DNA of 32,000 nt from Flavobacteriaceae bacterium. Its GTDB lineage: Bacteria; Bacteroidota; Bacteroidia; Flavobacteriales; Flavobacteriaceae. The position numbers and the translations under genes are program-made. A model generated the notes under the pieces. The model did no database searches. It saw only the letters and a list, made by a program, of their open reading frames with translations, and was not told the origin of the DNA. The stretch spans positions 750,001 through 782,000 of the forward strand of contig OZ245049.1 in the NCBI GenBank assembly GCA_965224465.1, in the 5' to 3' direction. Shown here piece by piece: positions 7,201 to 21,200 of the stretch (its first letter is position 1; the number at the start of each line of letters is the position of its first letter).

Positions 7201-9272
7201 AATGTATCCGTAGCTGTAACAAGTACATTATTGGTATAGGTACCTATTGTAATATTGTTGGCATCTACAATATTAACAGCATATTCTCCTGCGTCAATAT
7301 TTGATAGCACCCTCCTATTTTCTCCAACAATTACTTGATACACCCCAAGGTTATTTTTCTTTTTCCAAGTATATTTATAGGCGTATTGACCATTGATAAG
7401 AGGACTAAAAGGTACGCCTCCAGTAGCCGTTACTGTCAATTCTCCATCACTTGAAGGATTCACAAACATATTGGCATTATTACAGGATATGGCATTGGTT
7501 TCTGTCAATGATAAGGCTAACATTGGGGGTTGATTTAAAGTAAACTCCGCTTTTACAATAGTACAACCTTCTTTATTCACAGCTTGGTCGTAATTAATAT
7601 CTTTTACGGTTAAATAATACGTTCCTGCGATTGCATTATTTAATGTTAAAAACCAACCGTCATTTCCATCATGTGTTGCTGTATTTACCGATGTCCAAAC
7701 GGTACCATTTTCATGTTTCCACTCAAAAGAGGCGTATGTTTTGTCTAAATTGAAGGTACCTCCAGTAATTTGCGCCAAAATTTTTCCGTCTGAAAAACCA
7801 AATGCTGATGGCTCTTTAATTGTTGTAAAGGCTATACTTAAAGGATTTTTGGGAATATCAATTAAAAAAGTTTTTGTAATTTCTTTGCCTAGATCAATAA
7901 TTACTCCATTTCCATCTTTTACTATTTCTTTAGCAATACAGCCATACGCATCACGCAATTTAAGTTCATAATTGGCAGTATCTAAGCCCCTAATAGTTTC
8001 AGTAACTCCAACGATTGGAGAAATAGCTGTACTTGAAAATGGGATCCAATTTTCTGTAGTTTCCCCTACTTTTCTTAATAAATACTCATACAGTACAAAA
8101 TTTTGCCCACCACTGGCGGTAATTTTCAACTCCCCATCGCTACCACCATTACACCAAACATCAACTTTTGTAAAATTAAATACTACAGGAGAAGGCTTGT
8201 TAATAGTAAATATTATTTTATGTGTAGGATCCTCAGTAAACGTATTCCAAATTTTTCCTTCATAAGCAGGAATACCAAAACCTAATACCCTAGCTTCATA
8301 TTCTCCTGGGGGTAAATCACTAATTTTATAATTTTTATTTATGATGTCGTTTTCGATGTTTGCTTTGGAATAATCACTATTATTAGTAGTATTAGTGACA
8401 CTAATACTCAATTTTTCTCCCGCATATAAATCACGATCAAAATTAAATGTAACACTTCCATCAATTGCATCATAACAAGTAGTCATATTTGGAAGAGCGC
8501 TATTAAAATGAGGAGCGGACCTTGTTAACTTAAAGAAAATATAATCTTCAGAAACAAGATTATCACACATTCTCAATCTAATGTACAATCGTTTTCCAAC
8601 ATCATTATTTGTTAAAAAAGAGGAAGGCTTGATGGAAAATGACCTTTGCTTATTGGTAACTGATGGCATAGCCGACCAATCAATTTTATTGGGAGTACCA
8701 GAAGACACCAACTGATATTCCCAATTATAATTAGCATTCAAAAACCCTTTAGAGTTATCACTAACTGAAACATAAAATTCGTCTTCTAAGCCGATGAAGT
8801 CAGATGAAGGTTTTATTAAATTGATGATTGGATGAATTTCGTAATCATAACTTATCCATATCTTAGTTTGATCTGAACCTTGAACTTTACTGTAACTTCC
8901 AGATTTACAATTATTATTAATATCGAAATTCTCTATTATTGTTTCCCTGTTTTTGCACTTCTTTTGTTTTCCTCTTGCAGACACGTAAAAGTACAATTTA
9001 ACTGGGCGCTCTAGAAGTTCTATGCTTAGAAGTTCATCTGTTTTCAAATCATATTCAGCACCTTGGCTACCTGCGTTATAAATCTCTGTAAAATCACCGT
9101 CAGCATAATACAATCTAAAATACAAATTATTGTCTCCTGAATCACAGCCAATATTTCGCTTACCTAGTCTTACTTGATAATCATAATTTTTTATGACAAC
9201 CCTGTATGTTTGCGAATACAAATTTGACACAAATAAAACAATCCCTAAAAACAATAATACTTTCCCTTTCAT
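4203..9272 (-). CDS. Giant cell-surface adhesin-like protein with SprB-type repeats, one PKD-like domain and a T9SS type-A C-terminal sorting domain
   Basis: 1689-aa ORF with signal peptide MKGKVLLFLGIVLFVSNLYSQ. It contains repeated modules such as VDVWCNGGSDGELKITASGG, VDVFCNAGNDGSINATITGGTGDYTILWTNG and HPTCFQGNDGSIELALSGGVPPYTIAWNTG, and a PKD-like segment ATYSWTSDNGFSATTPSITISKAGTYQVTV. Confidence 0.9.
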   Translation of the reverse strand: MKGKVLLFLGIVLFVSNLYSQTYRVVIKNYDYQVRLGKRNIGCDSGDNNLYFRLYYADGDFTEIYNAGSQGAEYDLKTDELLSIELLERPVKLYFYVSARGKQKKCKNRETIIENFDINNNCKSGSYSKVQGSDQTKIWISYDYEIHPIINLIKPSSDFIGLEDEFYVSVSDNSKGFLNANYNWEYQLVSSGTPNKIDWSAMPSVTNKQRSFSIKPSSFLTNNDVGKRLYIRLRMCDNLVSEDYIFFKLTRSAPHFNSALPNMTTCYDAIDGSVTFNFDRDLYAGEKLSISVTNTTNNSDYSKANIENDIINKNYKISDLPPGEYEARVLGFGIPAYEGKIWNTFTEDPTHKIIFTINKPSPVVFNFTKVDVWCNGGSDGELKITASGGQNFVLYEYLLRKVGETTENWIPFSSTAISPIVGVTETIRGLDTANYELKLRDAYGCIAKEIVKDGNGVIIDLGKEITKTFLIDIPKNPLSIAFTTIKEPSAFGFSDGKILAQITGGTFNLDKTYASFEWKHENGTVWTSVNTATHDGNDGWFLTLNNAIAGTYYLTVKDINYDQAVNKEGCTIVKAEFTLNQPPMLALSLTETNAISCNNANMFVNPSSDGELTVTATGGVPFSPLINGQYAYKYTWKKKNNLGVYQVIVGENRRVLSNIDAGEYAVNIVDANNITIGTYTNNVLVTATDTLYTLTQPELLQITFTKVDVFCNAGNDGSINATITGGTGDYTILWTNGASTEDIDTLVAGTYTIDVTDIKGCQAQANITIKEPENPLVINYTAFFAPTYTGATNGWIEATITGGTSMDSGKYKYHWKDTNGANLNAKVTETVHATSYVITLNNLGKGVYDLTIEDKNYSVAINKTNCTIVSSDYEIFEPAPLMARIELQQPISCNSANTYEDPFADGVLEVIAEGGVHLQPTDNNGLAYYYTWKKEINPGVWTVLTTQTTNIANNLDAGNYAVNIEDANGIIIGVYQNNLLVNATDVLYLFKEPSLLELSIEKQDVYCFNGSDAWAKIIVSGGKPPYTVLWSNGGVTEQISNLNQGVYEVAVSDSSGCHTTGSIQINQPTASISIKYTAFETPSIGGASDGWIVAQITGGTDFKNGSYTYYWQDANGGILNAQTTTGIVNGIFQIRLNKLPKGAYYLTIEDANSSLANTGDGCTIADNVFMLYDPIEAILSVHKPISCHGDNSFNNPFSDGALHVTVTGGVPFTEGQPYMYYWKKENKNGDFEDLNQNTNTAMGLSHGKYALNVADSRGVVIGVYKSLQLINPTDLIYYFQEPELLEVALSKTEISCDTGDNATATVTITGGIPPYKIEWSNGQDTATANNLIAGNYLVFITDARGCQVTGNIGIAQPGGLQITVLKEKHPTCFQGNDGSIELALSGGVPPYTIAWNTGETVTDIKGLSQGTYTFSLIDGNGCKAFKEIILVHPTKITIDLGADRTLCKDQTHEVDGSISDKNATYSWTSDNGFSATTPSITISKAGTYQVTVISALGCTASDSITFLYNDTIIDSEFLLSSQAYVNQDVIVFNVSSPKGASSKWIIPKEVAIIEKSDLSITLRFPKVATYELGLISTQGACYEEQYKNIVVEEHSGLPSPGDTNNPFIEEFTLSPNPNNGQFELYINLAESSQIAVRVFSIQGSFIFAQPNLASAEEYKISMSLNLATGTYFVVLETAKETRIKRMIIK
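4206..4445 (-). other. T9SS type-A C-terminal sorting domain (Por secretion tail) of the 1689-aa protein
   Basis: The last ~80 aa read FTLSPNPNNGQFELYINLAESSQIAVRVFSIQGSFIFAQPNLASAEEYKISMSLNLATGTYFVVLETAKETRIKRMIIK. This fits the PNP...l.i....v.i.i.d..G......l......i....l..G.Y.v.....k..r.K.iik pattern of TIGR04183-type CTDs. Confidence 0.8.
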
Positions 9273-9276
9273 CTCC

Positions 9277-11397
9277 TTAAAATTTAACAGTTACTTTTTT
9301 AACTAGTGAATATTTTCCATTTGTTAAGGTAGCTCTGATATGATATGTATATGTAGTATTTGGGAAAACAGCGGTATCAACAAGTCTTTTTATATGTACG
9401 GGCACAATGCGCCAAGTAGTAGGATCCTTATCATTTTCTTGCTTATAAATGGTGTATTCAGCAATTAAATCGTCAGCGGATCTCCAAAAAAGTTCTATAG
9501 TATTTTCGGTTCTGTACACAATAAAATTTATTTCTTTGATAATTACTGGAGGCCTTAAATCAATAACATTGATGGTAAGCATGGTAGACGGCAATGATAT
9601 TAAACCACTATTATCTATGGCTTTTATAGCATACTGATAGGTCTTGTCTGCTTCCACATCTTTGTCTGTAAAATTTTGTATGGTATCTGTTACTTTGTAA
9701 ATCGTTTCCCAACTGCTACTGTCTGTTATGTTTTTTCTAGAAAGTATATGAGTCGCACCTTCCTCAGAAGAATTAATCCAATTTAGTTTCACCACTCCTT
9801 TTTCGACTTTATAATTCGAAAAAACGGGTGCTGTTGGAGGAATTACATCTGGTTTTTCCAATATCAATACTTCTGATTTATTGGAATGATTGTATCGTTT
9901 ATCCACTGCAACTACTTGGTAATAGACCTTTGCATTTAAGTTTTTCACCTCCACTGTATCTATAAATTGATTGGTTGGAATAGGAGAAACTGTTAACTGG
10001 GAAGTCTCTTCTTTCTTATTAAAGCCTCTAAAAATTCGGTAACCAAGCAAATCCTTTTCTTTATTGGCTTTCCAATAAAACGTAGCAATCCCCAAGCTAT
10101 CTATTTTCCCCTCTAAAGTAATCGGAGTGGCTGGTGGAATTGAATCAACAGGCTGTATAAGTTTACTATACGAAGTTTTTTGTTGCTTTGGTGTAATTCC
10201 TACTGCCGTAATGGTGAAATAATTAGAAGGCTCTAATTCCGAATATATAAGTTGTCTTTGAGATACCAAAATATTATCCATAACTACTTTATAAGGACCT
10301 TCATCTTTTTCCGATTGATTCAATTGAAATTTCTTCGTAACAAGTTCTCCTTCGACAGGAAACTCCCACATAATTTCAACTTCGTTTTCTTTTTTAGTGA
10401 ATTTAAAATCTGAAATACGTGGAGTAAAAGGTAACGTTGGCATTCCTTGCCCTTTTATGGTATCGGAATAGCTTCCTTTTTCTCCAAAAGGAGAAATCCC
10501 GTTTACACGGTAATAATATGTTTTTTGATTTTGTGCCAAGGAATCTATATAATACATTCGCTTTGCAGGTGCGTTTGGTTTATCATTCAAATTAACCAAT
10601 GGTTGATCACTTACTGGGACAAAAGTATTTCCATCTTCGGAGCGTTCCAAGTTATATGAAGTATACACATTTTTAAACAAGGCGTATTCCCACGTAATTA
10701 TGGCACTTTTATCTCCAAATACCCCTTGTAAATCTATAGGTACTGGTAGCGGTTCATAATTATCTAGCCCTGCTAAAACAGCCGAACTTTTTATATCTAA
10801 TTCCTCTTTTGACAATGCCGATTTAATTTTATAAGCATAGGTTTCATTTGATTTCACATCGGTATCTGTATATCCCCATCCTGCTTTTGATGCTGCTTCA
10901 AAATTCATATCTGCCGCTAACAATGCAAAAGAAAAACGTTGTTCATTTTCTTGCACGATATTAACAATAGTTGCCAATGCTCCTTGAGAACCTTCTACAT
11001 TAAAACGTTCCCCGTAAATTGCCTGTGCAATGATGGCTGCATAATCATTATTTTCTACAATTTCTTGCCATGTTTCTAAGGGAGCTGCTTTTATAGATTT
11101 TGACCATAGCTTTTGTGCCACCGGTAAACGTTTTCCGTTTTTAGAAAACAAGTATTTTTCCAATATAAAACCACTGGTATTTGTTTTTCCCCAAGCCAGT
11201 GCTTCATCCACTGCCCAACGCAGTAATATATTTTTTTCTTGAACACGTGATAGAAGTCTGACAGATGGGAGGCTGTCTTGTTGTTTTACTTGGGAAAACC
11301 CAAAAGTAAATACAAACATACAAACCAATCTTATCATAAAAATTATTGATTTTTCATGAATTTGATGCATACCATTTATAGATGTTTTATTCGTCAT
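9277..11397 (-). CDS. Secreted multi-fibronectin-type-III-domain protein
   Basis: 706-aa ORF. A hydrophobic signal-like segment (MIRLVCMFVFTFGFSQ) begins at an internal Met at 11337. There are repeated ~90-aa units ending in FN3-like Y.Y.V.A.D..GN.S motifs (YYYRVNGISPFGEKGSYS, VYYQVVAVDKRYNHSNKS, YQYAIKAIDNSGLISLPS, YTYHIRATLTNGKYS). Confidence 0.85.
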   Translation of the reverse strand: MTNKTSINGMHQIHEKSIIFMIRLVCMFVFTFGFSQVKQQDSLPSVRLLSRVQEKNILLRWAVDEALAWGKTNTSGFILEKYLFSKNGKRLPVAQKLWSKSIKAAPLETWQEIVENNDYAAIIAQAIYGERFNVEGSQGALATIVNIVQENEQRFSFALLAADMNFEAASKAGWGYTDTDVKSNETYAYKIKSALSKEELDIKSSAVLAGLDNYEPLPVPIDLQGVFGDKSAIITWEYALFKNVYTSYNLERSEDGNTFVPVSDQPLVNLNDKPNAPAKRMYYIDSLAQNQKTYYYRVNGISPFGEKGSYSDTIKGQGMPTLPFTPRISDFKFTKKENEVEIMWEFPVEGELVTKKFQLNQSEKDEGPYKVVMDNILVSQRQLIYSELEPSNYFTITAVGITPKQQKTSYSKLIQPVDSIPPATPITLEGKIDSLGIATFYWKANKEKDLLGYRIFRGFNKKEETSQLTVSPIPTNQFIDTVEVKNLNAKVYYQVVAVDKRYNHSNKSEVLILEKPDVIPPTAPVFSNYKVEKGVVKLNWINSSEEGATHILSRKNITDSSSWETIYKVTDTIQNFTDKDVEADKTYQYAIKAIDNSGLISLPSTMLTINVIDLRPPVIIKEINFIVYRTENTIELFWRSADDLIAEYTIYKQENDKDPTTWRIVPVHIKRLVDTAVFPNTTYTYHIRATLTNGKYSLVKKVTVKF

Positions 11398-11682: not shown

Positions 11683-12357
11683 CTAAGTCGGGAGACTTTG
11701 CGCAGCGGGTAAATCTTCTTTAAATAACTCCTCAAATACTTTTAAAATATCTTTATAAGTATCTTTTTTTTTAGCTTGGATTTTTAAAATATTATAATAT
11801 TCAATCAGCTTTTCATTAAAATCCGGATGCTTAACGAGTTTTAATATTAAAATTGTTTTTGGAAATAATATGGAGCCTTGAATATATGGCACTACTTCCT
11901 GAGGTTTTTTATCAGCCAACAAATCTGCCACCTTCTCTAAAGTGTTATATTTCTCAAAAAAAGGTAATGAGTATTGCTGAATGATTTTTTGGATTTGCTC
12001 ATTAACCAATTGAAACGATTTAAGGTCATTTATTTCCGTACTAAAAGCAGAGTAATCAACATTTTCTAACTGGTTCAAAACATTTCTTATGGTTCTTACT
12101 TCTTCGCTTGGTTTCCTAACTCTTGTCTTTTCGTATGCATCATTTAATGTTTTTTCTACATTATGGAATGATATTCCTATTGAAATTCCATCTATGAATA
12201 CTCCGTGAGGAAAATATTTTCTATCTTGTATATATATTAATTTATCATATTTCATCCCTTTTGATATTAGTGAAATACCATTGTCTACCCTAGTAAATCC
12301 CAGAGGCATTTCAAGGATATTCTCCCAATCTGTAACATAGTTTTTCTTTAAATACAT
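11683..12357 (-). CDS. Candidate cognate immunity protein (assigned by position only); cytoplasmic, family not recognised
   Basis: 224-aa ORF whose ATG (12357) lies 4 nt after the toxin stop (12362-12364). It has no signal peptide or hydrophobic segment (MYLKKNYVTDWENILEMPLGF...). I recognised no motif. Confidence 0.8.
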   Translation of the reverse strand: MYLKKNYVTDWENILEMPLGFTRVDNGISLISKGMKYDKLIYIQDRKYFPHGVFIDGISIGISFHNVEKTLNDAYEKTRVRKPSEEVRTIRNVLNQLENVDYSAFSTEINDLKSFQLVNEQIQKIIQQYSLPFFEKYNTLEKVADLLADKKPQEVVPYIQGSILFPKTILILKLVKHPDFNEKLIEYYNILKIQAKKKDTYKDILKVFEELFKEDLPAAQSLPT

Positions 12358-12361
12358 AATG

Positions 12362-15300
12362 TTATATTTTTTTTATTCCTGTAATAATATCCCCGTTTGC
12401 TCCATCGTGCACTTTATACCATTGTATCTCTCCATTAAAACTTAAAATTTCTCCTCCTTTTAATTCATTTTTACTACCATCTATTTTAGATTTTTTCGGA
12501 TTAGAGGCACGAACACTATAACTACCTTTTCCCTTTGCAGCCTTTTGGTTAGGTGTTAAACGAGTGCCACTGCTAAGTTTGTTTTCTATAATTATGATAT
12601 CATCTATATCTCCATAAGCATCATATTTTACAAAAACTTGGTCTGCTACAAAATAATCTACTTTTTTGCCATTAGCCAATGTTACCTCTCCAAAACTTAA
12701 TTGTACTTGTGAGAACATATCGTATTCATCTAGATTTTTGTTAAAGTCTGCACTAAATTTTTGTTTTAATTCCAAGTACTTATCAGAGAGGCGGTTTTTA
12801 AATTTTTCTAGGCAGACAAATTTTTCAAAATCATTTCCCTTTTTTGTTACCACTTTAAAGAAATTGGCTTTAGCCCATTTTCTCCATATTCCTGTACCAT
12901 CTTCACCTAATTCAAAAGCATAGGCAGCATCGTCTTTAAGTAGTTTCCAGGCTTCCACATCTTCTGCCCCAACTATGAGATCTTTAAGCTCATCTCCATT
13001 ACTTTTAGAAGCAAAATCCATGTTTAATTTACTCCAATAGGATTCTCCAATTTCATCAATTTTTTTTATTATGTCAATATTCTCAACTTCATCTAAATTA
13101 GATACCCATGTTTTCAAATTTGGAAAATCATCCATTTTATTCAACAATGCAGTAATAGCCTCACTGTGTTTCACCGTTGTCCCAAGTATTCTCTTAGCCT
13201 CAGCAATATCCCCTACTAAATCATCAACGTTACCTAGTCCAGCTTCAATCTCAAGATGTGTAACCCAAATTTTTGCTTCTTTTATTTTATTAGGGTTCGC
13301 TGTGTTAATCGTTTTAATGTCTCCTTCTGCATCTTTTAATTTGTCTAAGAATAATTTAGCCTGATTTTTACTTGGCAGCGTTTTATTTAGAGTTTTAGTT
13401 TTAGAAAAAATCTTTTTTAAATTAGCTACATTAGATATTTCACCAATGGCAATAGTGGCAGTTAAAACGTTTAGGGCGTCTAAAAAAGCTTTGCCTTGTG
13501 GGCTTAAATTTTCTGTACCTATGGCTGTGGTAGTCAAACTAACTCCTGAGCCAAGCATATCCGCAATAATAAAAGTTTTTCGCATTAAACTTGGAGCCTT
13601 TGTAAGAGCTCCATAACCAGAAGCTAAACTTGCAACATCTACAGTTGCTTGTACCCCATCTACAACTACTTGCGTATTTCCAACATCGCTAGCATAAAAA
13701 GCAACTATGGCAGGGCTAATTACAGGTACATCATCGTTATATTCACTTAACATGCTTAACCCTGATTTATTGGTGAAATAAATTGGAGAATAAGGATGTA
13801 ATGCCAATGGTATAGCTGTAGAGACAATATCATTGCCAACAAATTTATCGGTATAAAGTGAAATTGTGGAAATTGTCTCATCTTCCTCCGATAGCCATTT
13901 TACTCTTGTGTCATACGAGTATAGATTTTTGCCATTCAGAAAATTCCATAACACAGGTAAATCTCCCAAAGTCAAGTTCCAAAAAGACTTGTAATAAAAT
14001 TTGATGTTTCTCTCAATTAACTCATCTTCCTTTAAACTTCCTAGTTCCGTTAAAAAGAATGTTGACTTATTAACATTTAAATCTGCGAGTACATTAATTA
14101 AATTCTTATAATTATCTTCATGAAAATAAGTGTGGTCATTATCTGTTTTATATACTAATTTACGAAGTAGGTTATAGTCTGCAGTTGCTACTTTAGAAAC
14201 ACTGTTTATTCCATCTAATAACCCGTCAACTTCAGTTTTTTTCGTGAATTTTATTAACCTAATTAACTGTTTTTCTTTTTCATTGTCCAGAGTCCACTTG
14301 TCTAGCATTAAGCTAAGTATTATCAATTTTTTATCAATTGATATATCTTCAATCTCATTGTTAGACAAAAATGCAATACATTTATGTAAATCAGATATTT
14401 TACTTTCTCCATCTATTGAACTCAATAAATGTGCACAATCTTTGGTTTCATTTTTTACACCATTTACAAATTGAACATACTTTTGAATTAATGAATCCTT
14501 TTTTAATGTTTTTAATGCCTCGTAAGCTATCTCAGATGGGACACTACTTAAATAGTTAGGAATAACCTTATCCATGGCATCAGGATATGCATTGTTAAGT
14601 ACTGCAATTTTTGAAGCTATAAGATACAGGGAATTCCAATCAATAATTTCCCCTAATATTTCCTTAATTAATTTCCCTTCCAAATTATATAGTTCAGGAA
14701 ACGGAATATTCTTCGCAAAAGTATAGTCATTTTTTTCTAGAACCTCTCCTGTATAGAACTTACTAAACCTATTATAATTTGATAAAATATTTGTCTCCTT
14801 TTGAGAACCCCAAGTTAAATTATCAACTTTATTAAGAGAAAGTCTTCTTGATTTATCTGTTAAAATAAGTATGATTACTTTACCGAAACTTCGTTTATTA
14901 TCTTCAGAAAGCACAAACTCCTCACCTGTGTCAGATTCAAAACCAAAATAATCAAAAGTAAAATCAGTAATAGTTATATCTGTACTTAATTCATTATTTA
15001 CTCTTTTCGCTTTATACTTATTACTATCCAATGTAAAACCTATAAGTGCACCTGTAGGGTATTTTATAAATTCATTTATTTTATCTAAACTAGTAACAAA
15101 CCTGATATTTTCTATTTTTGAAGGAAGTGTGATATAACTTCCGTTCAAAGTCATAAAAGTATATGTTCCGTTCGAATTTTTAAATTTACTAGGAATTCCA
15201 GAAATAGTGGTGCTCTCCCCTTCACTATCCCCATCAAAAACCCCAATCCTCAATTTCGGATTGTGTATGGCTTTCCAATGTACATAAGGTAAATGCTCTC

Positions 15301-18241
15301 CATTATTATAATCTAGTAACCAATTGGTACTTCCTGTAGCATATTTATAACTATGCGTAGAGAATGGATGTTTTAGTTGGAAGGCACCGTGGGCGAGTTC
15401 GTGTGCTACGGTTATCCCCCCAGCCCCAGAAGGGGGAGAATTTGCGGTAAAAATATAACCGAATTGTCTGCCTAGTGGCATGAGTCCTTTTTCTCCTGCG
15501 GAGCTTGGCTGTTTGTCTGTTAAGATTAAATAATAAGCTTCAGGGTTAAAGTTACCATGCTCTTTTAATGCCTTATTTATACTACGCTGTTGCTCCGTGT
15601 ATTGCGCTGCAAAGCCACTTTCTCCACTTTTTATAGTGCCGTCTGGTGTTAAACTGTTTAGGGTCGCTGTAAAATCGTTAATTACAGAAATATTTAGGCT
15701 AACTGCTGCTTGTTGGTAAATAGCTTTTAGTTTTTTTGTAATGGCACTTGTATTCGCATTTGAAGTATTTACCAATACTACGGCCACTTCCTTTATGGCA
15801 ATTTGGTATTGCATAAAAGCCCCTGCTATTTGGTATTTATCGCCTTGTTTTACTAAGGCTTGGGTTTCTATATCGGCATCGCTTAGCGTTCCTTTTAATT
15901 TTAAGGTGTAAGAAGTACTAGTACTATCTACTTTTTTCAGTCCTACACCATCTTTGGTTTTAAAAATAATGTCTTGAGGTTTTATACTATCGTTGGTAAT
16001 TTTGAAATTGGCAACAATAAAAGCTACCTTGCCCTTGGCTACCGCTTTGTAAGGCATGTAATAAGCTGCTCCTAACTTTTTGTACAAGTCCTTGGTTTGT
16101 GATTGGCTTGAGTTGTAGGCGTCGAATCCAGTGGGCAGTGTTGCAGTAGGCAGTTGGGTGAACGTTACGGTGACACCTTGTGCGGTGATGTTGGTGGCTT
16201 CTCCTTTGCTGTTTACGCCTGTGGTATTTTCCACAGTGGTAGTACCGCCTTCGGCTTGTGGACCTAATTCGGTTACATTTCCTTGTTCGTCTACATGGTA
16301 TTTTTTTGGTAGTACTGGCGGTTTTGCTTTGGGGTCTCCGCTATCGGTTATTATATAGTCTTCGCCTCCAGATAATTCTACAATGGGTGCTCCTCCTTTT
16401 CCTACTAATAATATATCTCCGTTGCTTGGGTCTACTAGGATTTCTGCTATTTGGAAGTTGACTTCACTGGTATTTACTTGTCCATCACCTCCATTAAATA
16501 GATCCCCTGTACCCTTTACACTACTCCATGTAGGATCGTAGGTAGTTTTAACGACTCCTTCATACAATTCGTAATCCGTATTTATTTTAATTCCTTTAAA
16601 CTCTACCGCTATTTTGGTATCTGCTAAATAAGGAACTACAATATATCCCGTTCCAGAAAAAGTTCCATTTCCTCCTTGTTTCTGTTTTACTGTCACAGGG
16701 AAATCTCCTGCCGTAAATGTTTCGTTCACGCCAATATTTGCCAATGGCTTAGTGTTGGTAATTTTAATTTCGGGGATAATACCACAGCTATAACTCACCG
16801 TTTCGTCCTTGGTAGGCATTGTAAACTGGTTTACATTGCTGTAAGTAAACGCTTGGTTTAAATCCGTTATCTCATGGCAAGTACCACCCACTCTAAAATC
16901 GTAGGTAACTCCTGCTTGTAAATTTGATACTTGGGCTTGGTTGTTATAAGAAAATATTTCGAACCATTCGGCATCGGCTACATCGGCACGTTTGTATTGT
17001 AAATGATACCTGTTGTGATCTGGATGTGTTTTCCAACTTATTTTCACACGCCCTGTATTTAGCGGTTCTGCCAAAGTCATGGTGGGTGGATAACACTGAT
17101 CTGTATAGGTAAAATAAAATATTTCGCTATACCCATTGTTCTTAAAAACCGAGTTTTCGCTCAATCCTGTTGTAGATTTTGCGCGTACCCGCCAAGCATA
17201 GGTACGCCCTGGCATTAATGGAGGCTTGCTTATGTTGTACGATATGGTAGTGGAATAGGTAGTCTCCGAATGATAAGGAGGCGCTGCTAAAAATCCTGCT
17301 TGAGGATCTATCTGCGTATCCCAAAGCTCACGCAGTTCAAACTCATAACTTACACCACTCGCATTGGCATGCCGTGGTGTCCATTGAAAAGTAATGTTGG
17401 TGGGTTGTATATTAGTCAATTGATCCCCTCGGTTGGGAATATTTAAAAAAGGAGGATCGTTTAACAGTAAAAAGATATTAGAACAGCCTCCCATTTTAGG
17501 ATTGGAGATGCGTTGTCCTGATAAAAAATCGTAGACTTCCCAACATATTTTGTAGCGTCCATCAGGTAGTGGTCTGTTGTATTGTTGTGGACTAATGCCT
17601 ATTAAATTATGTAACTGAAAATAGGCTGCTAAATCTATGTTTGTAAATTGTTGTGTACTTTTCCCATTGAGGTAAATAAAAGGTGCTCCTTGTACAAAAT
17701 TTACAGATTGTATATTGAGTCCCTGTCCTTGTATTTTTAATTTTAAGCGTATTTGACGGTTGCTAATATTGGCATCGTTCATGGTCAAATACAGCCGTAA
17801 TTTTACAGCAGACGTTGTTGCATAACTGTTTAGTTTTGTGTTATAAGGGGGGACTATATTTTGACTTACTTGTACTGGGTGGAGTTGGGCCTGTGTAAGT
17901 TGGCAGGTTAGCAATAGGCAGAATGCAGTTAGCAGTTTTGCAGTTGGCAGTAAGCAGTTGAGCATCTTTGTGAAAATAGTAGGCAATTGCTTGTTGTTGC
18001 GGATATTTGTAGTATGCGGTATGCAGTTGAGCATCTTTGTGGTAAGATTTTTTAAATTAAACTTTGATTTTATTTCACAACAGTGAGTACTGCAAACTGC
18101 ATCCAGAAAACTGCGTACTTTATAGACATCAGTGCTAAAACCGCATACTGCATACTTTAACCTCAACAACATTCCTGCAATCTGCTTACTGCTTACCATG
18201 CGTAACATTTTATTTATTAAATTTGAGAACATTCTTTTCAT
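12362..18241 (-). CDS. Giant modular polymorphic-toxin-like protein: FN3-rich N-terminal region, HExxH metallopeptidase motif, long helical region, hydrophobic pre-toxin helices, PD-(D/E)xK-like C-terminal domain
   Basis: 1959-aa ORF. FN3-like segments include TNITFQWTPRHANASGVSYEFELRELW...RTYAWRVRAKS and GRVKISWKTHPDHNRYHLQYKRADVADAEWFEI...GVTYDFRVGG. The peptidase motif is ITVAHELAHGAFQLKHPF. The C-terminus reads GNDFEKFV...VDYFVAD...IIIIENKLSSGTRLTPNQ. There is no T9SS CTD. The start is ambiguous. The ATG at 18241 overlaps the upstream stop (TAATG), but the first signal-peptide-like segment begins at Met93 (17965: MLNCLLPTAKLLTAFCLLLTCQLTQAQ). Confidence 0.9.
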   Translation of the reverse strand: MKRMFSNLINKMLRMVSSKQIAGMLLRLKYAVCGFSTDVYKVRSFLDAVCSTHCCEIKSKFNLKNLTTKMLNCIPHTTNIRNNKQLPTIFTKMLNCLLPTAKLLTAFCLLLTCQLTQAQLHPVQVSQNIVPPYNTKLNSYATTSAVKLRLYLTMNDANISNRQIRLKLKIQGQGLNIQSVNFVQGAPFIYLNGKSTQQFTNIDLAAYFQLHNLIGISPQQYNRPLPDGRYKICWEVYDFLSGQRISNPKMGGCSNIFLLLNDPPFLNIPNRGDQLTNIQPTNITFQWTPRHANASGVSYEFELRELWDTQIDPQAGFLAAPPYHSETTYSTTISYNISKPPLMPGRTYAWRVRAKSTTGLSENSVFKNNGYSEIFYFTYTDQCYPPTMTLAEPLNTGRVKISWKTHPDHNRYHLQYKRADVADAEWFEIFSYNNQAQVSNLQAGVTYDFRVGGTCHEITDLNQAFTYSNVNQFTMPTKDETVSYSCGIIPEIKITNTKPLANIGVNETFTAGDFPVTVKQKQGGNGTFSGTGYIVVPYLADTKIAVEFKGIKINTDYELYEGVVKTTYDPTWSSVKGTGDLFNGGDGQVNTSEVNFQIAEILVDPSNGDILLVGKGGAPIVELSGGEDYIITDSGDPKAKPPVLPKKYHVDEQGNVTELGPQAEGGTTTVENTTGVNSKGEATNITAQGVTVTFTQLPTATLPTGFDAYNSSQSQTKDLYKKLGAAYYMPYKAVAKGKVAFIVANFKITNDSIKPQDIIFKTKDGVGLKKVDSTSTSYTLKLKGTLSDADIETQALVKQGDKYQIAGAFMQYQIAIKEVAVVLVNTSNANTSAITKKLKAIYQQAAVSLNISVINDFTATLNSLTPDGTIKSGESGFAAQYTEQQRSINKALKEHGNFNPEAYYLILTDKQPSSAGEKGLMPLGRQFGYIFTANSPPSGAGGITVAHELAHGAFQLKHPFSTHSYKYATGSTNWLLDYNNGEHLPYVHWKAIHNPKLRIGVFDGDSEGESTTISGIPSKFKNSNGTYTFMTLNGSYITLPSKIENIRFVTSLDKINEFIKYPTGALIGFTLDSNKYKAKRVNNELSTDITITDFTFDYFGFESDTGEEFVLSEDNKRSFGKVIILILTDKSRRLSLNKVDNLTWGSQKETNILSNYNRFSKFYTGEVLEKNDYTFAKNIPFPELYNLEGKLIKEILGEIIDWNSLYLIASKIAVLNNAYPDAMDKVIPNYLSSVPSEIAYEALKTLKKDSLIQKYVQFVNGVKNETKDCAHLLSSIDGESKISDLHKCIAFLSNNEIEDISIDKKLIILSLMLDKWTLDNEKEKQLIRLIKFTKKTEVDGLLDGINSVSKVATADYNLLRKLVYKTDNDHTYFHEDNYKNLINVLADLNVNKSTFFLTELGSLKEDELIERNIKFYYKSFWNLTLGDLPVLWNFLNGKNLYSYDTRVKWLSEEDETISTISLYTDKFVGNDIVSTAIPLALHPYSPIYFTNKSGLSMLSEYNDDVPVISPAIVAFYASDVGNTQVVVDGVQATVDVASLASGYGALTKAPSLMRKTFIIADMLGSGVSLTTTAIGTENLSPQGKAFLDALNVLTATIAIGEISNVANLKKIFSKTKTLNKTLPSKNQAKLFLDKLKDAEGDIKTINTANPNKIKEAKIWVTHLEIEAGLGNVDDLVGDIAEAKRILGTTVKHSEAITALLNKMDDFPNLKTWVSNLDEVENIDIIKKIDEIGESYWSKLNMDFASKSNGDELKDLIVGAEDVEAWKLLKDDAAYAFELGEDGTGIWRKWAKANFFKVVTKKGNDFEKFVCLEKFKNRLSDKYLELKQKFSADFNKNLDEYDMFSQVQLSFGEVTLANGKKVDYFVADQVFVKYDAYGDIDDIIIIENKLSSGTRLTPNQKAAKGKGSYSVRASNPKKSKIDGSKNELKGGEILSFNGEIQWYKVHDGANGDIITGIKKI
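12365..12830 (-). other. C-terminal ~155-aa putative restriction-endonuclease-fold (PD-(D/E)xK) toxin domain
   Basis: The catalytic-type residues occur in the expected order: E in GNDFEKFV, D in VDYFVAD, E-x-K in IIIIENK (codons at 12578-12586), then TPNQ. This matches the generic E...D...ExK...Q layout of PD-(D/E)xK nucleases. I could not assign a subfamily. Confidence 0.5.
15389..15403 (-). other. HExxH zinc-metallopeptidase motif (HELAH) inside the toxin
   Basis: The reverse complement of gtgggcgagttcgtg is cac gaa ctc gcc cac. The context is GITVAHELAHGAFQLKHPF, with a third His 7 residues after the second. Confidence 0.7.
16311..17970. repeat. Copy 2 of the 1.68-kb direct repeat (partner 1..1681)
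   Basis: See the partner feature. It encodes aa ~93-643 of the 1959-aa protein. Confidence 0.97.
17925..18200. repeat. Short GCAGTWG/CTGCTTAC-type repeat field with an 11-bp perfect inverted repeat, at the 5' end of toxin paralog 2
   Basis: gcagtaagcag (17947-17957) is the exact reverse complement of ctgcttactgc (18182-18192). The unit gcagttgagcatctttg occurs twice, 69 nt apart, giving Met70 and Met93 (KMLNCIP.../KMLNCLL...). The region shares modules with 1820-1897, 2391-2453 and 2748-2810. Confidence 0.9.
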
Positions 18242-21200
18242 TAGTTTCTAAACCTATTAGGGTTCTTAAATTTATAGGTACTATTACTTCCTTCAATCCC
18301 TCCAGGTAACGTGTAGCTTAATTTTGTTTCATAAAAACCATATCTCATAAAGAGGTAATCATCATCCAAGAAATTAAGTAGTGAACTTCCTTTAGGTATC
18401 AATCCGTCCACATAATCATTCAATATTTGAGATTGCATATCTAGCCAATCCGCTTTATAAGCCTCCCCAAGGTTGTAGCGAAAAGGAAAGGTAGTTCTCA
18501 GTGTTTTATCATTTACTTCGTATTCCAAATTAGTTAAATAACTAGATAAAATAGGCATTGCATACTTAGGAGGTGTGCCTAATAATTGAACCTTTCTGTT
18601 TTCAAAAGTATACGTTCCTCCCATTGGATATTGGGCATATAATGGTGGATTTATATCAGCTGTAAAATAGCTATCCTCAAGCGTTGCTTCAATACTAACT
18701 AAAGGTATATGATCTGTAAAATTAGATCCTAAAAGTTCCATAATATCAAAAGGTTCATGATCATCCAGTCTATTGGTCAAATAAATAACATCAGAATAAA
18801 TAATTCCCCAATTATAATCGTTGGTATTGATGGAGTTAATTTTACGTTTGAATGTTTTGTATTTAGACGAACCAAATTCATACGCCAACCGTACTATCTC
18901 TCCATTTTTAGATACATTTTCTGCCTGTTTATTTTCTATGATTGCAGTATTCTCACCAGAATCATCACCTATATCGGCATTATGAGTTGTTGTATCCCCT
19001 CCTCGTTCTACGGCAGCTCCTTTAAGTCTACTAGCAATTTCCATGGTATAGTGTGTTTCTTGGGATATGTTCGGTATTTTATAGCTTAGTTTATTATCCG
19101 AAGTACTGTAATTAAAATCTATATCTTTTGAATTTCTATTGTTAGAACTATACTTCACAAAGCTCTCCCAGGCGGCATCATCAAATAAATAATCTTGCCC
19201 ACGTTTTAATTGAATGTACCCTTGAGCATACTCATTTTCTAAAAAATATTTCTGGTCTACTACTGGATATGCGTATTTGATATTGTGTAAGGGAATATAA
19301 TTGGGAGCTCCACCGGTAGTAAAGGTACGCTCTTCCATTTCTTTTGCTGGTTTACCATCTACCATTATGGGTTGAAAAATTCCATTAATTTTCTCTTTAA
19401 AACTCACCTCTACACGCACTGTTAATTCTTTATTTGGAGGTAAGATGTCTGAAGACACAAAATTAGCTCGGTCTTTAAAGGTTGACCATTCTATGACACC
19501 AGGGATTTCCTTCCCCTTGTATAAAACAGTAAATGTATCCACATCAATGCGGTATGTTTTATCACCATCATCTTCTGGGATAATTAATGGCACGCCCACT
19601 TTCATACTAAAAGTTACTTGCGGAACGGCAAAAATGTCTAAGTCTTTTATACCATTATCAGGTGACACATCTGTAATAATTTTTAAGCCACCCAAAGGTA
19701 TCCCATTATCAAATTCACATTCTTCTCCAATCGTAAGTTTAAATCTAAACTTACCTTTTACCAATCCTCCCAACACATTAAAATTACCCCCCACATAGCC
19801 ACGCATCCAAACTGGATTTGGCGCTTTGGCTTGCAATAATACAGCAGCTCCACCTTTAATGATTGGTATTTTCTTCTTCACAAAAAACAATTTGATTTGA
19901 ATCCCTAATTCTCCTTGTAAATAGGCGTATGCTTGTCCATTTGCATACCAGCCATTAATCCCTACTTGCTTCCCAGTATTGGAACAAGAAGCTTCTCCAT
20001 AATCTCGTAACATGATATCAAAACCAGTACCTGCCTGAAAACGAGCATATAACATCAAAAAACGTAAATCTCCTGTATCAATAGCCAGATCAGCTCCAAA
20101 AGCGAACCCTCCCCCGGACTTTAAGGCATTTTCGTCGCGCATATAATCCAATACATCTGCATCTACTCCTAGAATTTCTGCAACAATTGGAGGCGGAGGC
20201 GGAGATCCTGGAAGCTTGGAACCTACCATTAAGTAGCCCCCTGTTTCCAAAAAAACAGTCCCAACACCTATTTTTATTCCCAACCTATCTTCTGGAGTTC
20301 CTATATAAATATACCATTCTTCTTTTGCAAAATGTAATACTGCCCATCCAGCTCTTCCACCAGGGCCTCTACCCTGAATAAACCCTCCTGGAGTATTAAT
20401 AGTAACATCCAATTCTCCGTGCAATACATCATTTTGAAAATCATAGGTTATTCCCATTTTCGCACAAATATCCATTCCTTTGCTAGGGTCTACTTGTGGA
20501 AAATTATTAGCTGCCTTGTCCATTAAATTTCCCCCAGCCCAAGATTCATCATCTTTTGGCGTACTTAGAAATTTTTCGGCTATATCAACATTTTCTTTTA
20601 CTTTATTTAGAAGGTCTGAAATTTTTTCTATCCCAGGAATTTTAACTCCTAAAAAGGTTGCTTGACCATAAAACCCCATGTTGTTAATTCCGCCATGGCG
20701 ATTAAACAAAATTTCAAAACCAGCACTTCCTTTAATAACTTCGTCCTTCACCATATTAAACATCACCATTGCTTTAAAGCCAAGTCCGAGGTCATGATCA
20801 GGGGTATAACCAATTCCTGTAGGTGAAAATGACGAAGAAAAACCTTTCCGTTTCATCCGATATGATGCGCCACCAGCAAATCCAGTCAAATTCATATAAC
20901 CGGTCCCAATAGAAAAACCATCCACCATAGCTTCAAATTGCCAATACCTAAAATCTGTTTTTCCAAACACTCCTTTAGCCGCAGCTTTTATACCAATACT
21001 TTTAAAATTGGCAGTTAATGATGCTGCAAACCCATCTCCATATTCTGGGTCATCTCGCATTAATTTTAACCATCCTTCTATAGAAAACCCTCCTAAATCC
21101 GCCTTTATAGTAATTTCATCCAATCGCAGTCCATCAAACTTCCATTTTTGACGATAATCTTCTTCTTCAAAACTCCCTATGACTCCTAAGCTGGTTGCAG

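What the first reader, a model, noticed from the sequence alone, without database searches (positions are those of the whole stretch)
11683..18241. Giant polymorphic-toxin-like protein with an unusual module order and no recognisable secretion tag, followed 4 nt later by a candidate immunity gene
Read N- to C-terminally, the 1959-aa protein has these parts. First a signal-like segment. Then ~550 aa of FN3-type domains and a low-complexity linker. Next an HExxH peptidase motif (HELAH, 15389-15403) and ~700 aa of helical sequence. Then two strongly hydrophobic stretches (ASLASGYGALTKA...FIIADMLGSGVSLTTTAIG...VLTATIAIGEI, ~13440-13660). Last is a ~150-aa tail with the E...D...ExK...Q order of PD-(D/E)xK nucleases. 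A 224-aa cytoplasmic ORF starts 4 nt after its stop, which is the classic toxin-immunity layout. Its T9SS-secreted neighbour has a type-A CTD, but this protein has none. I see no Rhs/YD, VENN, HINT, PAAR, MafB or T6SS/T7SS-type marker either, so the export and delivery route is unexplained. The HExxH module could be a self-releasing peptidase, as described for some polymorphic toxins, but that is inference.
Basis: partly seen in the sequence, partly recalled or inferred. Interest (0 to 1): 0.8.

Follow-up and report, generated by a model that had tools for sequence, protein, structure and literature searches.

The report
TANFOR-class polymorphic toxin with immunity gene
This is a large secreted bacterial "weapon" protein of a class described in Bacteroidetes in 2020 (TANFOR polymorphic toxins), carrying a nuclease-like killing domain that matched no family in the libraries I searched, next to its own antidote gene; how the class leaves the cell is still unknown, and a giant barrel-like outer-membrane protein encoded beside it is a new lead.

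Summary
The ORFs are real, but the toxin probably starts at M93 (nt 17965), not 18241. The protein belongs to the published TANFOR class of Bacteroidetes polymorphic toxins (Jana, Salomon & Bosis 2020, PMC7073777). A conserved core (aa ~105-1010) is shared by over 100 of the 120 homologs compared. It holds a signal peptide, a weak TANFOR match, two FN3 domains and an invariant HExxHG..L.H zincin motif. The C-termini behind it differ: EndoU, AHH, deaminase, ART, TNT, RES and others. So the module order is standard for the family, and the N-terminal domain is a recognised trafficking marker.

The last 260 aa match no Pfam, PDB-sequence, PADLOC or PHROG family and are not BaCT. They have invariant D/ExK residues (E and Q nearly invariant) on a predicted alpha-beta-beta-beta-alpha-beta core. 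The same domain ends Rhs, SprB-repeat and FN3 proteins.

In 5 of 5 other loci the next gene is a homolog of the 224-aa ORF, so it is very likely the immunity gene.

The export route remains unknown. The toxin sits in a conserved same-strand cluster. One member, a ~1600-aa protein, is modelled as a mostly-beta protein that resembles LptD-type outer-membrane barrels.

Verdict: a new member of a known kind, of moderate interest.

The parts
12362..17965 (-). TANFOR-class polymorphic toxin gene. The probable start is M93 at 17965; the longest ORF extends to 18241.
   Evidence: The ORF is listed. The start is inferred from homolog N-termini and from upstream stop positions in 80 loci. There are 330 homologs with polymorphic C-termini.
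17885..17965 (-). Sec signal peptide (ORF aa 93-119)
   Evidence: This is the strongest hydrophobic window of the protein, with a KD19 of 1.75. It aligns with the signal peptides of homologs, which end in AQ before YPVQV.
17504..17866 (-). Divergent TANFOR domain (aa 126-246)
   Evidence: TIGR02542 matches at E 0.0025 and 17.8 bits, covering profile positions 7-135 of 145. This is below the curated cut-off of 67. Homologs P0059 and P0046 match the same region at 38 and 27.6 bits.
16820..17422 (-). Two FN3-type domains (aa 274-364 and 396-474)
   Evidence: Pfam fn3 matches at E 1.3e-9 and Pur_ac_phosph_N at E 4.7e-7.
15212..15844 (-). Zincin-like metallopeptidase region at the end of the conserved core (aa ~800-1010). 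HELAH is at 15389-15403 and H958 at 15368-15370.
   Evidence: A946, H947, E948, H951, G952, F954, L956 and H958 are identical in at least 95% of the 22 aligned sequences, and H947, E948, H951, G952, L956 and H958 are invariant in a 13-sequence alignment. The best PDB-sequence match of the profile is M64 IgA protease at E 0.011, aligned over the AHExxHG helix. Family-wide conservation ends about 60 aa later.
13145..15211 (-). Variable middle module (aa 1011-1699), shared by only about 18-24 of the 120 homologs
   Evidence: BLASTP coverage map. There are no Pfam hits.
13427..13639 (-). Gly/Ala/Ser/Thr-rich, moderately hydrophobic pre-toxin segment (aa ~1535-1605)
   Evidence: KD19 maxima are 1.33 and 1.37. 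The surrounding region (aa ~1440-1700) is shared at 26-29% identity with homologs that carry other toxin domains, for example P0015 with EndoU.
12365..13144 (-). C-terminal toxin module (aa 1700-1959). It has a helical subdomain plus a PD-(D/E)xK-like core (core about 12365-12865). Codons: E1806 at 12824-12826, D1867 at 12641-12643, E1886-N-K1888 at 12578-12586, Q1899 at 12545-12547.
   Evidence: Residue conservation comes from a 33-sequence alignment. The AF2 model has pLDDT 89.5 and an alpha-beta-beta-beta-alpha-beta order. The family has 326 representative clusters and is C-terminal in long proteins. It is found on Rhs, SprB-repeat and FN3 scaffolds.
11683..12357 (-). Cognate immunity gene (224 aa, no signal peptide)
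   Evidence: It starts 4 nt after the toxin stop. Homologs at 33-45% identity lie immediately downstream of the same toxin domain in L001, L002, L083, L084 and L085. There is no N-terminal hydrophobic segment.
18241..23022 (-). Conserved cluster partner 'up1593': a 1593-aa protein with a signal peptide, predicted to be an almost all-beta meander of the outer-membrane-barrel type
   Evidence: There are 542 homologs; the 120 listed are 50-76% identical over nearly the full length, none has a Pfam domain, and all that carry an NCBI/JGI name are called hypothetical (two UniRef clusters: 'Cell surface protein SprA'). It is 40% identical to the gene upstream of the Pedobacter TANFOR gene. The AF2 model of aa 1-1200 has pLDDT 66.8. 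All 11 Foldseek hits with E below 1e-3 are outer-membrane beta-barrel proteins, led by LptD at 3.7e-6.
9277..11397 (-). Conserved cluster partner: 706-aa FN3-rich protein with a signal peptide
   Evidence: It is 39% identical over its full length to the Pedobacter counterpart. It is present on the same strand in about 64 of 80 related loci.
4203..9272 (-). Conserved cluster partner: SprB-repeat protein with a type-A T9SS C-terminal domain
   Evidence: Pfam SprB matches at 3.3e-52 and Por_Secre_tail at 4.5e-13. It is present in about 70 of 80 related loci. Its enrichment around TANFOR genes is published (PMC7073777).
2821..4203 (-). Conserved cluster partner: 460-aa PKD-repeat protein with a lipobox-like signal peptide
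   Evidence: Pfam PKD matches at 2.7e-23. It is present in about 66 of 80 related loci. The N-terminus contains ...LVSFCFSC.
1..1832 (-). 5' part and leader of a second TANFOR gene (coding from about 1676 and running off the window)
   Evidence: It is 95.5% identical in DNA to 16311-18100. N-core aa 1-551 are 98% identical.
17966..18240 (-). Leader with inverted arrays of the heptad ACTGCNN. This region was annotated as an N-terminal extension of the ORF.

Best explanation
The gene at 12362-17965(-) encodes a Sec-exported polymorphic toxin of the TANFOR class of Bacteroidota, and 11683-12357(-) encodes its cognate immunity protein.

**Shown**
- A constant N-terminal scaffold is shared with hundreds of Flavobacteriia and Sphingobacteriia proteins. 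It comprises a signal peptide, a divergent TANFOR domain, two FN3 domains, a beta-rich region and an invariant HExxHG..L.H zincin motif.
- The C-terminal ends of these proteins are swapped among many toxin types.
- The C-terminal 260 aa here form a separate, shuffled toxin domain family. It always ends the protein and is always followed by a homolog of the 224-aa ORF.

**Inferred**
- The toxin core is a Mg-dependent PD-(D/E)xK nuclease using E1806, D1867, E1886, K1888 and Q1899.
- It kills neighbouring bacteria by degrading nucleic acid.
- The immunity protein binds and blocks it in the producer's cytoplasm, as shown experimentally for the analogous BaCT/BaCTic pair of the same class.
- The zincin domain at the constant/variable junction processes or releases the variable part.
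- The Gly/Ala-rich pre-toxin segment helps entry into the target cell.

**Export (inferred, open)**
After Sec transport, the toxin crosses the outer membrane with the help of the conserved co-encoded proteins. These are the barrel-like 1593-aa protein, the 706-aa FN3 protein, the SprB-repeat T9SS substrate and the PKD lipoprotein.
For: **Class membership**
- There are 330 homologs. Most cover only the N-terminal ~46% of the query and carry EndoU, AHH, deaminase, ART, SHH, TNT, Endonuclease_NS_2, colicin/pyocin DNase or RES domains at the C-terminus.
- The coverage map drops from 106-120 of 120 homologs to about 20 after aa 1010, and to 3-5 over the tail.
- There is a weak TIGR02542 hit.
- Loci 58-69% identical in the core are listed as TANFOR proteins in PMC7073777. 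They are Gelidibacter algens NZ_LZRN01000026.1, Tenacibaculum agarivorans NZ_MSMP01000009.1 and Tenacibaculum sp. M341.
- The neighbourhood of SprB plus CTD, Fn3 and PKD proteins is the one reported for the class.

**Toxin domain**
- D1881, E1886 and K1888 are invariant; E1806, D1867 and Q1899 are nearly invariant.
- The AF2 model has pLDDT 89.5, with D1867 on strand 2 and ExK at the end of strand 3.
- The top Foldseek hits are PD-(D/E)xK nucleases, although none is significant: SduA at E 0.04 in PDB, and phage endonuclease, DUF1064 and PD-(D/E)XK proteins at E from 0.005 in BFVD.
- The domain is C-terminal in Rhs, SprB-repeat and FN3 proteins.

**Immunity**
- A homolog follows the toxin domain in 5 of 5 other loci.

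**Zincin motif**
-.
Against: - The direct TANFOR HMM score (17.8 bits) is far below the curated cut-off of 67. It would also fail the paper's own threshold of E below 1e-7.
- No fold or sequence search gives a significant match of the toxin core to a known nuclease. The best values are E 0.005 (BFVD) and 0.04 (PDB). Pfam, PADLOC, PHROGs and PDB sequences give nothing. Nuclease activity therefore rests on motif and topology alone.
- The third zinc ligand and a Met-turn are not established, and our protein has L where most relatives have M in 'LMDY'.
- No experiment exists for this protein, its secretion or its target.
Confidence: 0.75

Rival explanations
1. The C-terminal domain is a toxin, but not a PD-(D/E)xK nuclease. 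It could be another hydrolase, or a toxin that acts by binding. The conserved D/ExK pattern would then be coincidental to a different fold or chemistry.
For: No search gives a significant match to any nuclease family or structure. hhalign against BaCT, the class's own PD-(D/E)xK domain, gives a probability of 3.6%. The predicted strands are unusually long, at 10-15 residues.
Against: The conserved residues fall where a PD-(D/E)xK site would place them: E on the helix, D on strand 2, ExK at the end of strand 3 and Q on the following helix. The top weak fold hits in two independent libraries are nearly all PD-(D/E)xK nucleases.
Confidence: 0.2
2. The protein is a surface adhesin or enzyme of the gliding/T9SS apparatus with no role in killing. 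The 224-aa ORF would then be an unrelated cytoplasmic protein.
For: The N-terminal two thirds are FN3-rich and beta-rich like adhesins, and the gene sits among SprB-repeat, FN3 and PKD surface-protein genes.
Against: Homologs with the same scaffold end in well-known toxin domains such as EndoU, AHH, deaminase, ART and TNT. A member of the class has been shown experimentally to be a DNase toxin with an immunity protein (PMC7073777). The tail here also ends an Rhs protein. The 224-aa ORF co-occurs with the tail in 5 of 5 loci, including loci without the scaffold.
Confidence: 0.04
3. The focal gene is a recently duplicated, possibly silent or decaying copy. The functional toxin of the cluster would be the second TANFOR gene in the canonical position after the PKD gene (window 1-1676).
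For: The commonest order in relatives is up1593, fn706, SprB, PKD, TANFOR. The focal gene occupies the rarer position directly after up1593. Its 5' 1.8 kb is 95.5% identical to the second copy, and a 100-nt scrap of the core lies downstream of the immunity gene.
Against: The 5.6-kb reading frame and the immunity gene are intact. The same position (up1593 followed directly by TANFOR) is used in Pedobacter L001, L019 and L081. Having several TANFOR genes per genome is normal; up to five were reported.
Confidence: 0.1

Closest known systems
TANFOR-domain polymorphic toxins of Bacteroidetes (Jana, Salomon & Bosis 2020, Life Sci Alliance, PMC7073777)
   Same: It has a Sec signal, an N-terminal TANFOR plus Fn3 scaffold, an interchangeable C-terminal toxin and a downstream immunity gene. 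It has no T9SS CTD. Its neighbourhood holds SprB-repeat/CTD, Fn3 and PKD genes. Orthologous loci appear in the paper's own tables.
   Different: The TANFOR match is very weak here (17.8 bits). The toxin and immunity domains are not among those named in the paper. The paper did not describe the invariant zincin motif at the end of the scaffold or the conserved domain-less ~1600-aa neighbour.
BaCT/BaCTic, the PD-(D/E)xK DNase toxin and immunity pair of TANFOR proteins (WP_081912444.1 / WP_035620349.1, Flavobacterium hydatis)
   Same: It is a C-terminal domain of ~230-310 aa with an ExK motif preceded by an 'xADxxF' strand, and it is followed within a few nucleotides by a cytoplasmic immunity gene. 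It also occurs as a stand-alone secreted protein and on other scaffolds.
   Different: No sequence or profile similarity was found (BLASTP none, hhalign probability 3.6%). The D-to-E spacing is 19 here against 12 in BaCT. The immunity protein is 224 aa against ~320-360 aa and is unrelated.
Contact-dependent inhibition, CdiB-CdiA-CdiI (two-partner secretion)
   Same: The gene order here is a large outer-membrane-barrel-like protein, a giant toxin with a variable C-terminal nuclease-like domain, then an immunity gene. The toxins are modular, and there is evidence of recombination at the 5' and 3' ends.
   Different: There is no TPS domain, no FHA repeats and no VENN motif, and no Omp85/POTRA partner. 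In most relatives three further genes separate the barrel-like gene from the toxin. The functional link between the two proteins is untested.
Releasing or processing peptidase modules of polymorphic toxins (for example DUF4157 zincins; from my own knowledge of Zhang et al. 2012, which was not read here)
   Same: An HExxH domain is placed between the trafficking part and the variable toxic part.
   Different: There is no detectable similarity to DUF4157 or any Pfam peptidase. The nearest weak match is M64 IgA protease. Cleavage has not been shown.

Membership tests
TANFOR-class polymorphic toxins (PMC7073777) | N-terminal TANFOR domain (TIGR02542). The paper's criterion was RPS-BLAST E below 1e-7 over at least 90 aa. 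| tested here: inconclusive
   hmmscan gives E 0.0025 and 17.8 bits (cut-off 67) over 121 aa, covering profile positions 7-135 of 145. Homologs P0059 and P0046 score 38 and 27.6 bits on the same region.
TANFOR-class polymorphic toxins (PMC7073777) | Homology to proteins the authors list as members | tested here: met
   The N-core is 58-69% identical to loci L004 (Gelidibacter algens NZ_LZRN01000026.1), L012 (T. agarivorans NZ_MSMP01000009.1) and L008 (Tenacibaculum sp. M341). It is 41-42% identical to F. hydatis WP_081912444.1 in L043. All of these are in the paper's supplementary tables.
TANFOR-class polymorphic toxins (PMC7073777) | Constant N-terminus with polymorphic C-terminal toxin domains, and a downstream immunity gene | tested here: met
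   Searches show the variable C-termini carrying known toxin Pfams. One search shows the immunity homolog downstream in 5 of 5 loci.
TANFOR-class polymorphic toxins (PMC7073777) | Sec signal peptide and a neighbourhood enriched in SprB, Por_Secre_tail, Fn3 and PKD | tested here: met
   The signal peptide is at aa 93-119. The neighbours are shown.
BaCT toxin domain / BaCTic immunity | Sequence similarity to WP_081912444.1 aa 1542-1841 (toxin) and to WP_035620349.1 (immunity) | tested here: not met
   BLASTP finds no hit. hhalign of the 33-sequence tail profile against a 4-sequence BaCT profile gives probability 3.6%. For the immunity protein, BLASTP finds nothing and hhalign gives probability 0.2%. 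The BaCT profile was thin.
PD-(D/E)xK phosphodiesterase superfamily | An alpha-beta-beta-beta-alpha-beta core with D on strand 2 and (D/E)xK on strand 3, all conserved | tested here: met
   The AF2 model (pLDDT 89.5) has helix 94-116, strands 141-155, 161-174 and 180-189, helix 198-203 and strand 208-211. E107, D168, E187, K189 and Q200 are invariant or nearly so. This is a predicted structure, not a solved one.
PD-(D/E)xK phosphodiesterase superfamily | Significant structural or profile match to an established member | tested here: inconclusive
   In Foldseek against PDB the best hit is SduA at E 0.04. Against BFVD the best hits are an endonuclease (E 0.005), DUF1064 (E 0.008) and several PD-(D/E)XK proteins. 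None has E below 1e-3. There are no HMM hits.
PD-(D/E)xK phosphodiesterase superfamily | Metal-dependent nuclease activity | not testable with these tools
   This needs purified protein and a DNase/RNase assay with E1886A and K1888A controls.
T9SS cargo | C-terminal sorting domain, type A (Por_Secre_tail, TIGR04183) or type B (TIGR04131, CHU_C) | tested here: not met
   The toxin has no such hit at E up to 10. None of the 120 best homologs has a precomputed CTD Pfam. The neighbour at 4203..9272 does have one.
Zincin / metzincin-like metallopeptidases | HExxH plus a third zinc ligand, and similarity to a peptidase family | tested here: inconclusive
   HExxHG..L.H is invariant, with a His at +11, the position of the Asp in M64 'HEFGHGLLGLGDEY'. 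The profile match to M64 IgA protease is only E 0.011. There is no Pfam peptidase hit. The domain was not modelled.
CDI / two-partner secretion | TPS domain and FHA repeats in the toxin, and an Omp85/POTRA transporter | tested here: not met
   Neither the toxin nor the 1593-aa neighbour has any such Pfam or NCBIfam hit.

The most novel reading that the evidence does not exclude
TANFOR toxin clusters encode their own outer-membrane conduit. In this reading the conserved, domain-less ~1600-aa protein (18241-23022) is a giant LptD/SprA-like beta-barrel. Together with the 706-aa FN3 protein, the PKD lipoprotein and the SprB-repeat T9SS substrate, it would export or surface-display CTD-less TANFOR toxins. 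That would make it a Bacteroidota-specific counterpart of two-partner secretion and CDI, and effectively a new secretion or delivery pathway.
Probability: 0.2. Interest if true: 0.8.

Novelty: new member of a known kind. Interest (0 to 1): 0.4.

Why it matters
TANFOR toxins are widespread in environmental and fish-pathogenic Flavobacteriia such as Tenacibaculum maritimum, Flavobacterium psychrophilum and F. columnare. How they leave the producer and enter a target cell is not known. This locus adds three things.

1. A toxin/immunity pair matching no family in Pfam, PADLOC, PHROGs or PDB sequences, with about 326 representative clusters, that is also mounted on Rhs and SprB-repeat scaffolds.
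2. An invariant zincin motif exactly at the constant/variable junction of the class. This makes the idea of proteolytic release testable.
3. A conserved five-gene cluster whose largest member looks like an outer-membrane barrel. This gives a concrete candidate to knock out when testing the export route.

None of this changes the category of the finding, which is a member of a known class.

Tried and rejected
- **Family libraries.** Pfam, NCBIfam, PADLOC, PHROGs and PDB-sequence searches of aa 640-1959 and of the 224-aa ORF gave nothing usable. A weak Myb_DNA-bind_7 match in 14 of 33 tail homologs (best E 0.0012) was not taken further.
- **BaCT membership.** This was tested against the F. hydatis sequence recovered from L043 and rejected.
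- **Fold search of the tail.** No significant hit was found in PDB or BFVD.
- **The 1593-aa family.** A profile search against PDB sequences gave nothing.
- **TonB-dependent receptor upstream (23661-26408).** It was considered as an export partner and rejected, because it is absent from all 82 related loci.
- **Recovering DNA beyond the left edge.** I tried to fetch it to see the whole second TANFOR gene. The window's PKD, IVP, SprB and immunity proteins are not on record in the contig index.
- **SprC/SprD.** I looked for them as possible identities of the neighbours, but found no sequences or sizes to test against.
- **Literature since 2020.** I found no experimental demonstration of the secretion route.
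- **Leader RNA fold.** It is only marginally better than shuffles, with z -1.9.
Full report
**Observation**

The two ORFs exist as described. The large one is at 12362..18241(-), 1959 codons. The small one is at 11683..12357(-), 224 codons, starting 4 nt after the toxin's stop. All genes from 2821 to 26408 lie on the minus strand.
- Pfam finds only fn3 (aa 274-364) and an FN3-like Pur_ac_phosph_N domain (aa 396-474) in the large protein, and nothing in the small one.
- HELAH is at aa 947-951 and ENK at aa 1886-1888.
- No T9SS C-terminal domain, Rhs, HINT, PAAR or TPS domain is detected.
- The neighbour at 4203..9272 has SprB repeats and Por_Secre_tail.

Two details of the observation need correcting.
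1. The true start is probably M93 (nt 17965). This gives a classical signal peptide followed by 'LHPVQV'.
   - Homologs begin that way.
   - In 80 related loci the reading frame stays open for a median of only 12 codons upstream of the equivalent point.
2. The 'strongly hydrophobic' stretches reach Kyte-Doolittle means of only 1.33-1.37 over 19 residues.

**What it is**

A search of the whole protein returned 330 relatives, almost all from Flavobacteriia such as Tenacibaculum, Aquimarina, Cellulophaga, Flavobacterium and Apibacter.
- Most match only the N-terminal ~46% of the query.
- Their C-termini carry different known toxin domains: Endonuclease_NS_2, EndoU, nucleic-acid deaminase, AHH, SHH, ADP-ribosyltransferases, TNT, colicin/pyocin DNase and RES.
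- A BLASTP coverage map shows three layers:
  - a core of aa ~105-1010, covered by 106-120 of the 120 homologs;
  - a middle module of aa ~1010-1735, covered by about 18-24;
  - a tail of aa ~1740-1959, covered by 3-5.
- P0005 joins the same core directly to the same tail without the middle module.

This is the signature of a polymorphic toxin family.

The family is already described. Jana, Salomon & Bosis (2020, PMC7073777) defined TANFOR-domain polymorphic toxins of Bacteroidetes:
- an N-terminal TANFOR domain (TIGR02542) plus Fn3;
- polymorphic C-terminal toxins with downstream immunity genes;
- a Sec signal but no CTD;
- neighbourhoods enriched in SprB repeats, Por_Secre_tail, Fn3 and PKD;
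- a secretion route that is only hypothesised to be T9SS.

Our aa 126-246 match TIGR02542 weakly, at E 0.0025 and 17.8 bits against a cut-off of 67. Two homologs score 38 and 27.6 bits on the same region.

More decisive is homology to published members. Loci that are 58-69% identical to our core are listed by accession and coordinates in the paper's tables: Gelidibacter algens, Tenacibaculum agarivorans and Tenacibaculum sp. M341. The same is true of the experimentally studied F. hydatis protein, which is 41-42% identical. Later work treats TANFOR as a known trafficking domain.

**The HExxH module**

- In an alignment of 22 diverse family members, A946, H947, E948, H951, G952, F954, L956, H958, T972, L975, D977 and Y978 are at least 95% identical; H947, E948, H951, G952, L956 and H958 are invariant in a 13-sequence alignment.
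- A profile of aa 800-1012 finds only M64 IgA proteases among PDB sequences, at E 0.011. The alignment covers the strand and helix carrying AHExxHG. The M64 third ligand, the Asp in HEFGHGLLGLGDEY, sits at +11, where our family has the invariant H958.
- Family-wide conservation ends about 60 aa later, at a conserved acidic 'F-x-[DG]-[DE]-x-[DE]-G-E' stretch.

This is therefore very likely a zincin metallopeptidase domain placed exactly at the constant/variable junction. A releasing or processing role fits that position but has not been shown.

**The toxin tail**

- The last 260 aa retrieve 35 close relatives. With a profile they retrieve 326 representative clusters, 191 of them at E of 1e-10 or better.
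- In every long protein (800-2986 aa) the domain is at the extreme C-terminus. Carriers include an Rhs protein (RHS repeats, DUF6531 and the RHS core), a SprB-repeat protein and an FN3-rich protein. Many others are stand-alone 340-360-aa proteins with their own signal peptide.
- Invariant or nearly invariant residues are E1806, R1817, D1867 (in 'FVADQ'), D1881, E1886-N-K1888 and Q1899.
- An AlphaFold2 model (pLDDT 89.5) has a helical subdomain followed by helix, three long strands, helix and strand. D1867 lies on the second strand and ExK at the end of the third, which is the PD-(D/E)xK arrangement.
- Fold searches give no significant hit. However, the best weak hits are the Shedu nuclease SduA in PDB (E 0.04) and, in BFVD, phage endonucleases, DUF1064 and several 'PD-(D/E)XK' proteins at E from 0.005.
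- The domain is not BaCT. I recovered the F. hydatis BaCT sequence from L043 and found no BLASTP similarity and an hhalign probability of 3.6%.
- Pfam, PADLOC, PHROGs and PDB sequences give nothing.

I therefore regard it as a PD-(D/E)xK-like toxin family that matched none of the family libraries or structures I searched. The nuclease chemistry is inferred, not shown.

**The immunity gene**

Five other loci carry the same toxin domain: Pedobacter endophyticus L001 and the metagenomic loci L002, L083, L084 and L085.
- In each, the next gene encodes a 212-221-aa protein homologous to our 224-aa ORF, at 33-45% identity with E from 5e-11 to 1e-49.
- The toxins in these loci are 46-65% identical to ours.
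- The linkage holds whether the toxin is fused to a TANFOR scaffold (L084), split from it (L001, L083) or stand-alone (L002).
- The ORF has no signal peptide and is unrelated to BaCTic.

This is strong comparative evidence for a cognate immunity protein.

**Surroundings and export**

I ran tblastn with the window's proteins against 80 related loci from species-representative genomes.
- Four partners recur on the same strand:
  - the 706-aa FN3 protein, in about 64 of 80 loci;
  - the SprB-repeat/CTD protein, in about 70;
  - the PKD protein, in about 66;
  - the 1593-aa protein, in about 43, a count limited by the 10-kb flanks.
- The commonest order is up1593, fn706, SprB, PKD, TANFOR. Flavobacterium uses a permuted order. 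Our window, L019, L081 and Pedobacter have TANFOR directly after up1593.
- The partners are 39-40% identical between this flavobacterium and Pedobacter, which belongs to a different class.
- The TonB-dependent receptor upstream is not conserved in any related locus.

The 1593-aa family has 542 members. The 120 listed are 50-76% identical over nearly the full length. None has a Pfam domain; those with an NCBI or JGI name are called hypothetical, and two UniRef clusters are named 'Cell surface protein SprA'. Many lie on the same contigs as TANFOR hits, judged by matching contig lengths.
- An AlphaFold2 model of aa 1-1200 has moderate confidence (pLDDT 66.8, pTM 0.41). It is almost entirely long antiparallel hairpins, with about 27 strands between aa 575 and 1097.
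- All 11 Foldseek PDB hits with E below 1e-3 are outer-membrane beta-barrels. They are LptD (best E 3.7e-6, probability 0.97) and the Deinococcus SlpA/SDBC protein. Porins, FimD/PapC ushers and the T9SS translocon SprA (E 4.8e-3) follow.
- TM-scores are low, at 0.1-0.14, so this is a lead and not a fold assignment.

All cluster proteins except the immunity protein have signal peptides, and the PKD protein has a lipobox-like motif.

The cluster may therefore form a surface or export apparatus for the CTD-less toxin. Whether export runs through T9SS, as the 2020 paper speculates, or through the co-encoded barrel-like protein, or both, cannot be decided here. I put about 0.2 on the dedicated-conduit reading.

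**Verdict**

[quoted passage not shown] Its claim of an unusual, tag-less architecture is not right, because this is the normal layout of a class published in 2020.

I rate the finding a new member of a known kind. The incremental novelty lies in:
- a toxin/immunity family that matched none of the libraries I searched;
- the invariant zincin motif at the junction;
- a conserved cluster with a barrel-like giant protein.

Interest is 0.4.

Noticed in passing
window 1-1832 (- strand): This is the 5' part of a second TANFOR toxin gene, running off the left edge of the window. It is 95.5% identical in DNA to 16311-18100 of the focal gene, leader included, and 98% identical in protein over 551 aa. 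It occupies the canonical position after the PKD gene. Its toxin and immunity end lies outside the window.
   Followed up: partly
window 11428-11530 (spacer between the immunity gene and the 706-aa FN3 gene): A ~100-nt fragment of the TANFOR core, equivalent to focal aa ~591-624, lies here. It is 97.8% identical to the second copy (61-152) and 92% identical to the focal gene (16371-16469). It looks like a recombination scar from insertion or replacement of the toxin cassette.
   Followed up: partly
window 17918-18192 and 1608-1880; also L001, L003, L015, L017, L070, L078 near the TANFOR start: Arrays of the heptad ACTGCNN lie over the start and signal-peptide codons, with the inverse orientation 90-230 nt upstream, forming long imperfect inverted repeats.
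- The window has 21 matches against 0.88 expected, and 18 of them are in the two leaders.
- In related loci, 24 of 28 exact matches in 1.69 Mb lie within -400..+150 of the TANFOR start.
- The RNA fold has a z-score of only -1.9.
- The element may be a regulatory site, a leader hairpin or a recombination site.
- It also explains the stop-free 'N-terminal extension' in gene calls.
   Followed up: partly
window 18241-23022 (- strand): This 1593-aa protein is conserved, has no known domain and carries a signal peptide. It is predicted to be an almost all-beta meander whose only significant fold matches are outer-membrane barrels (LptD, SlpA, then ushers and SprA). It is clustered with TANFOR genes across Flavobacteriia and Sphingobacteriia.
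   Followed up: partly
window 2004-2342 (- strand): A 112-aa '23S rRNA intervening sequence protein' (PF05635, a four-helix-bundle family with a weak bAvd-like hit) is inserted between the PKD gene and the leader of the second TANFOR gene. The flanks at 2758-2817 and 18097-18156 are 78% identical, so the gene looks like an insertion into the leader.
   Followed up: no
L001:9484-9630 (Pedobacter endophyticus): An orphan fragment of the same toxin domain, covering its last ~50 aa at 49% identity, lies just downstream of the immunity gene. This is typical debris of C-terminal displacement.
   Followed up: no
L084:5183-6510: Two consecutive ~220-aa ORFs follow the TANFOR toxin that carries the same tail. 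Only the first is a homolog of the 224-aa immunity ORF. The second has a signal-peptide-like N-terminus and is unrelated.
   Followed up: no
P0135 (368 aa, metagenome) and P0303 (2986 aa): In P0135 the tail domain lies directly after a TNT toxin domain in one short ORF. In P0303 it ends a SprB-repeat protein. The domain is therefore mounted on SprB-like scaffolds as well as on TANFOR and Rhs scaffolds.
   Followed up: no
window 23661-26408 (- strand): A TonB-dependent receptor with a CarboxypepD_reg domain lies directly upstream of the cluster. It is not conserved next to any related TANFOR locus, so it is probably incidental. A Bacteroidetes-type -7 motif (TATTTTTG) lies 336 nt upstream of the 1593-aa gene, and none is found in the toxin leader.
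   Followed up: partly
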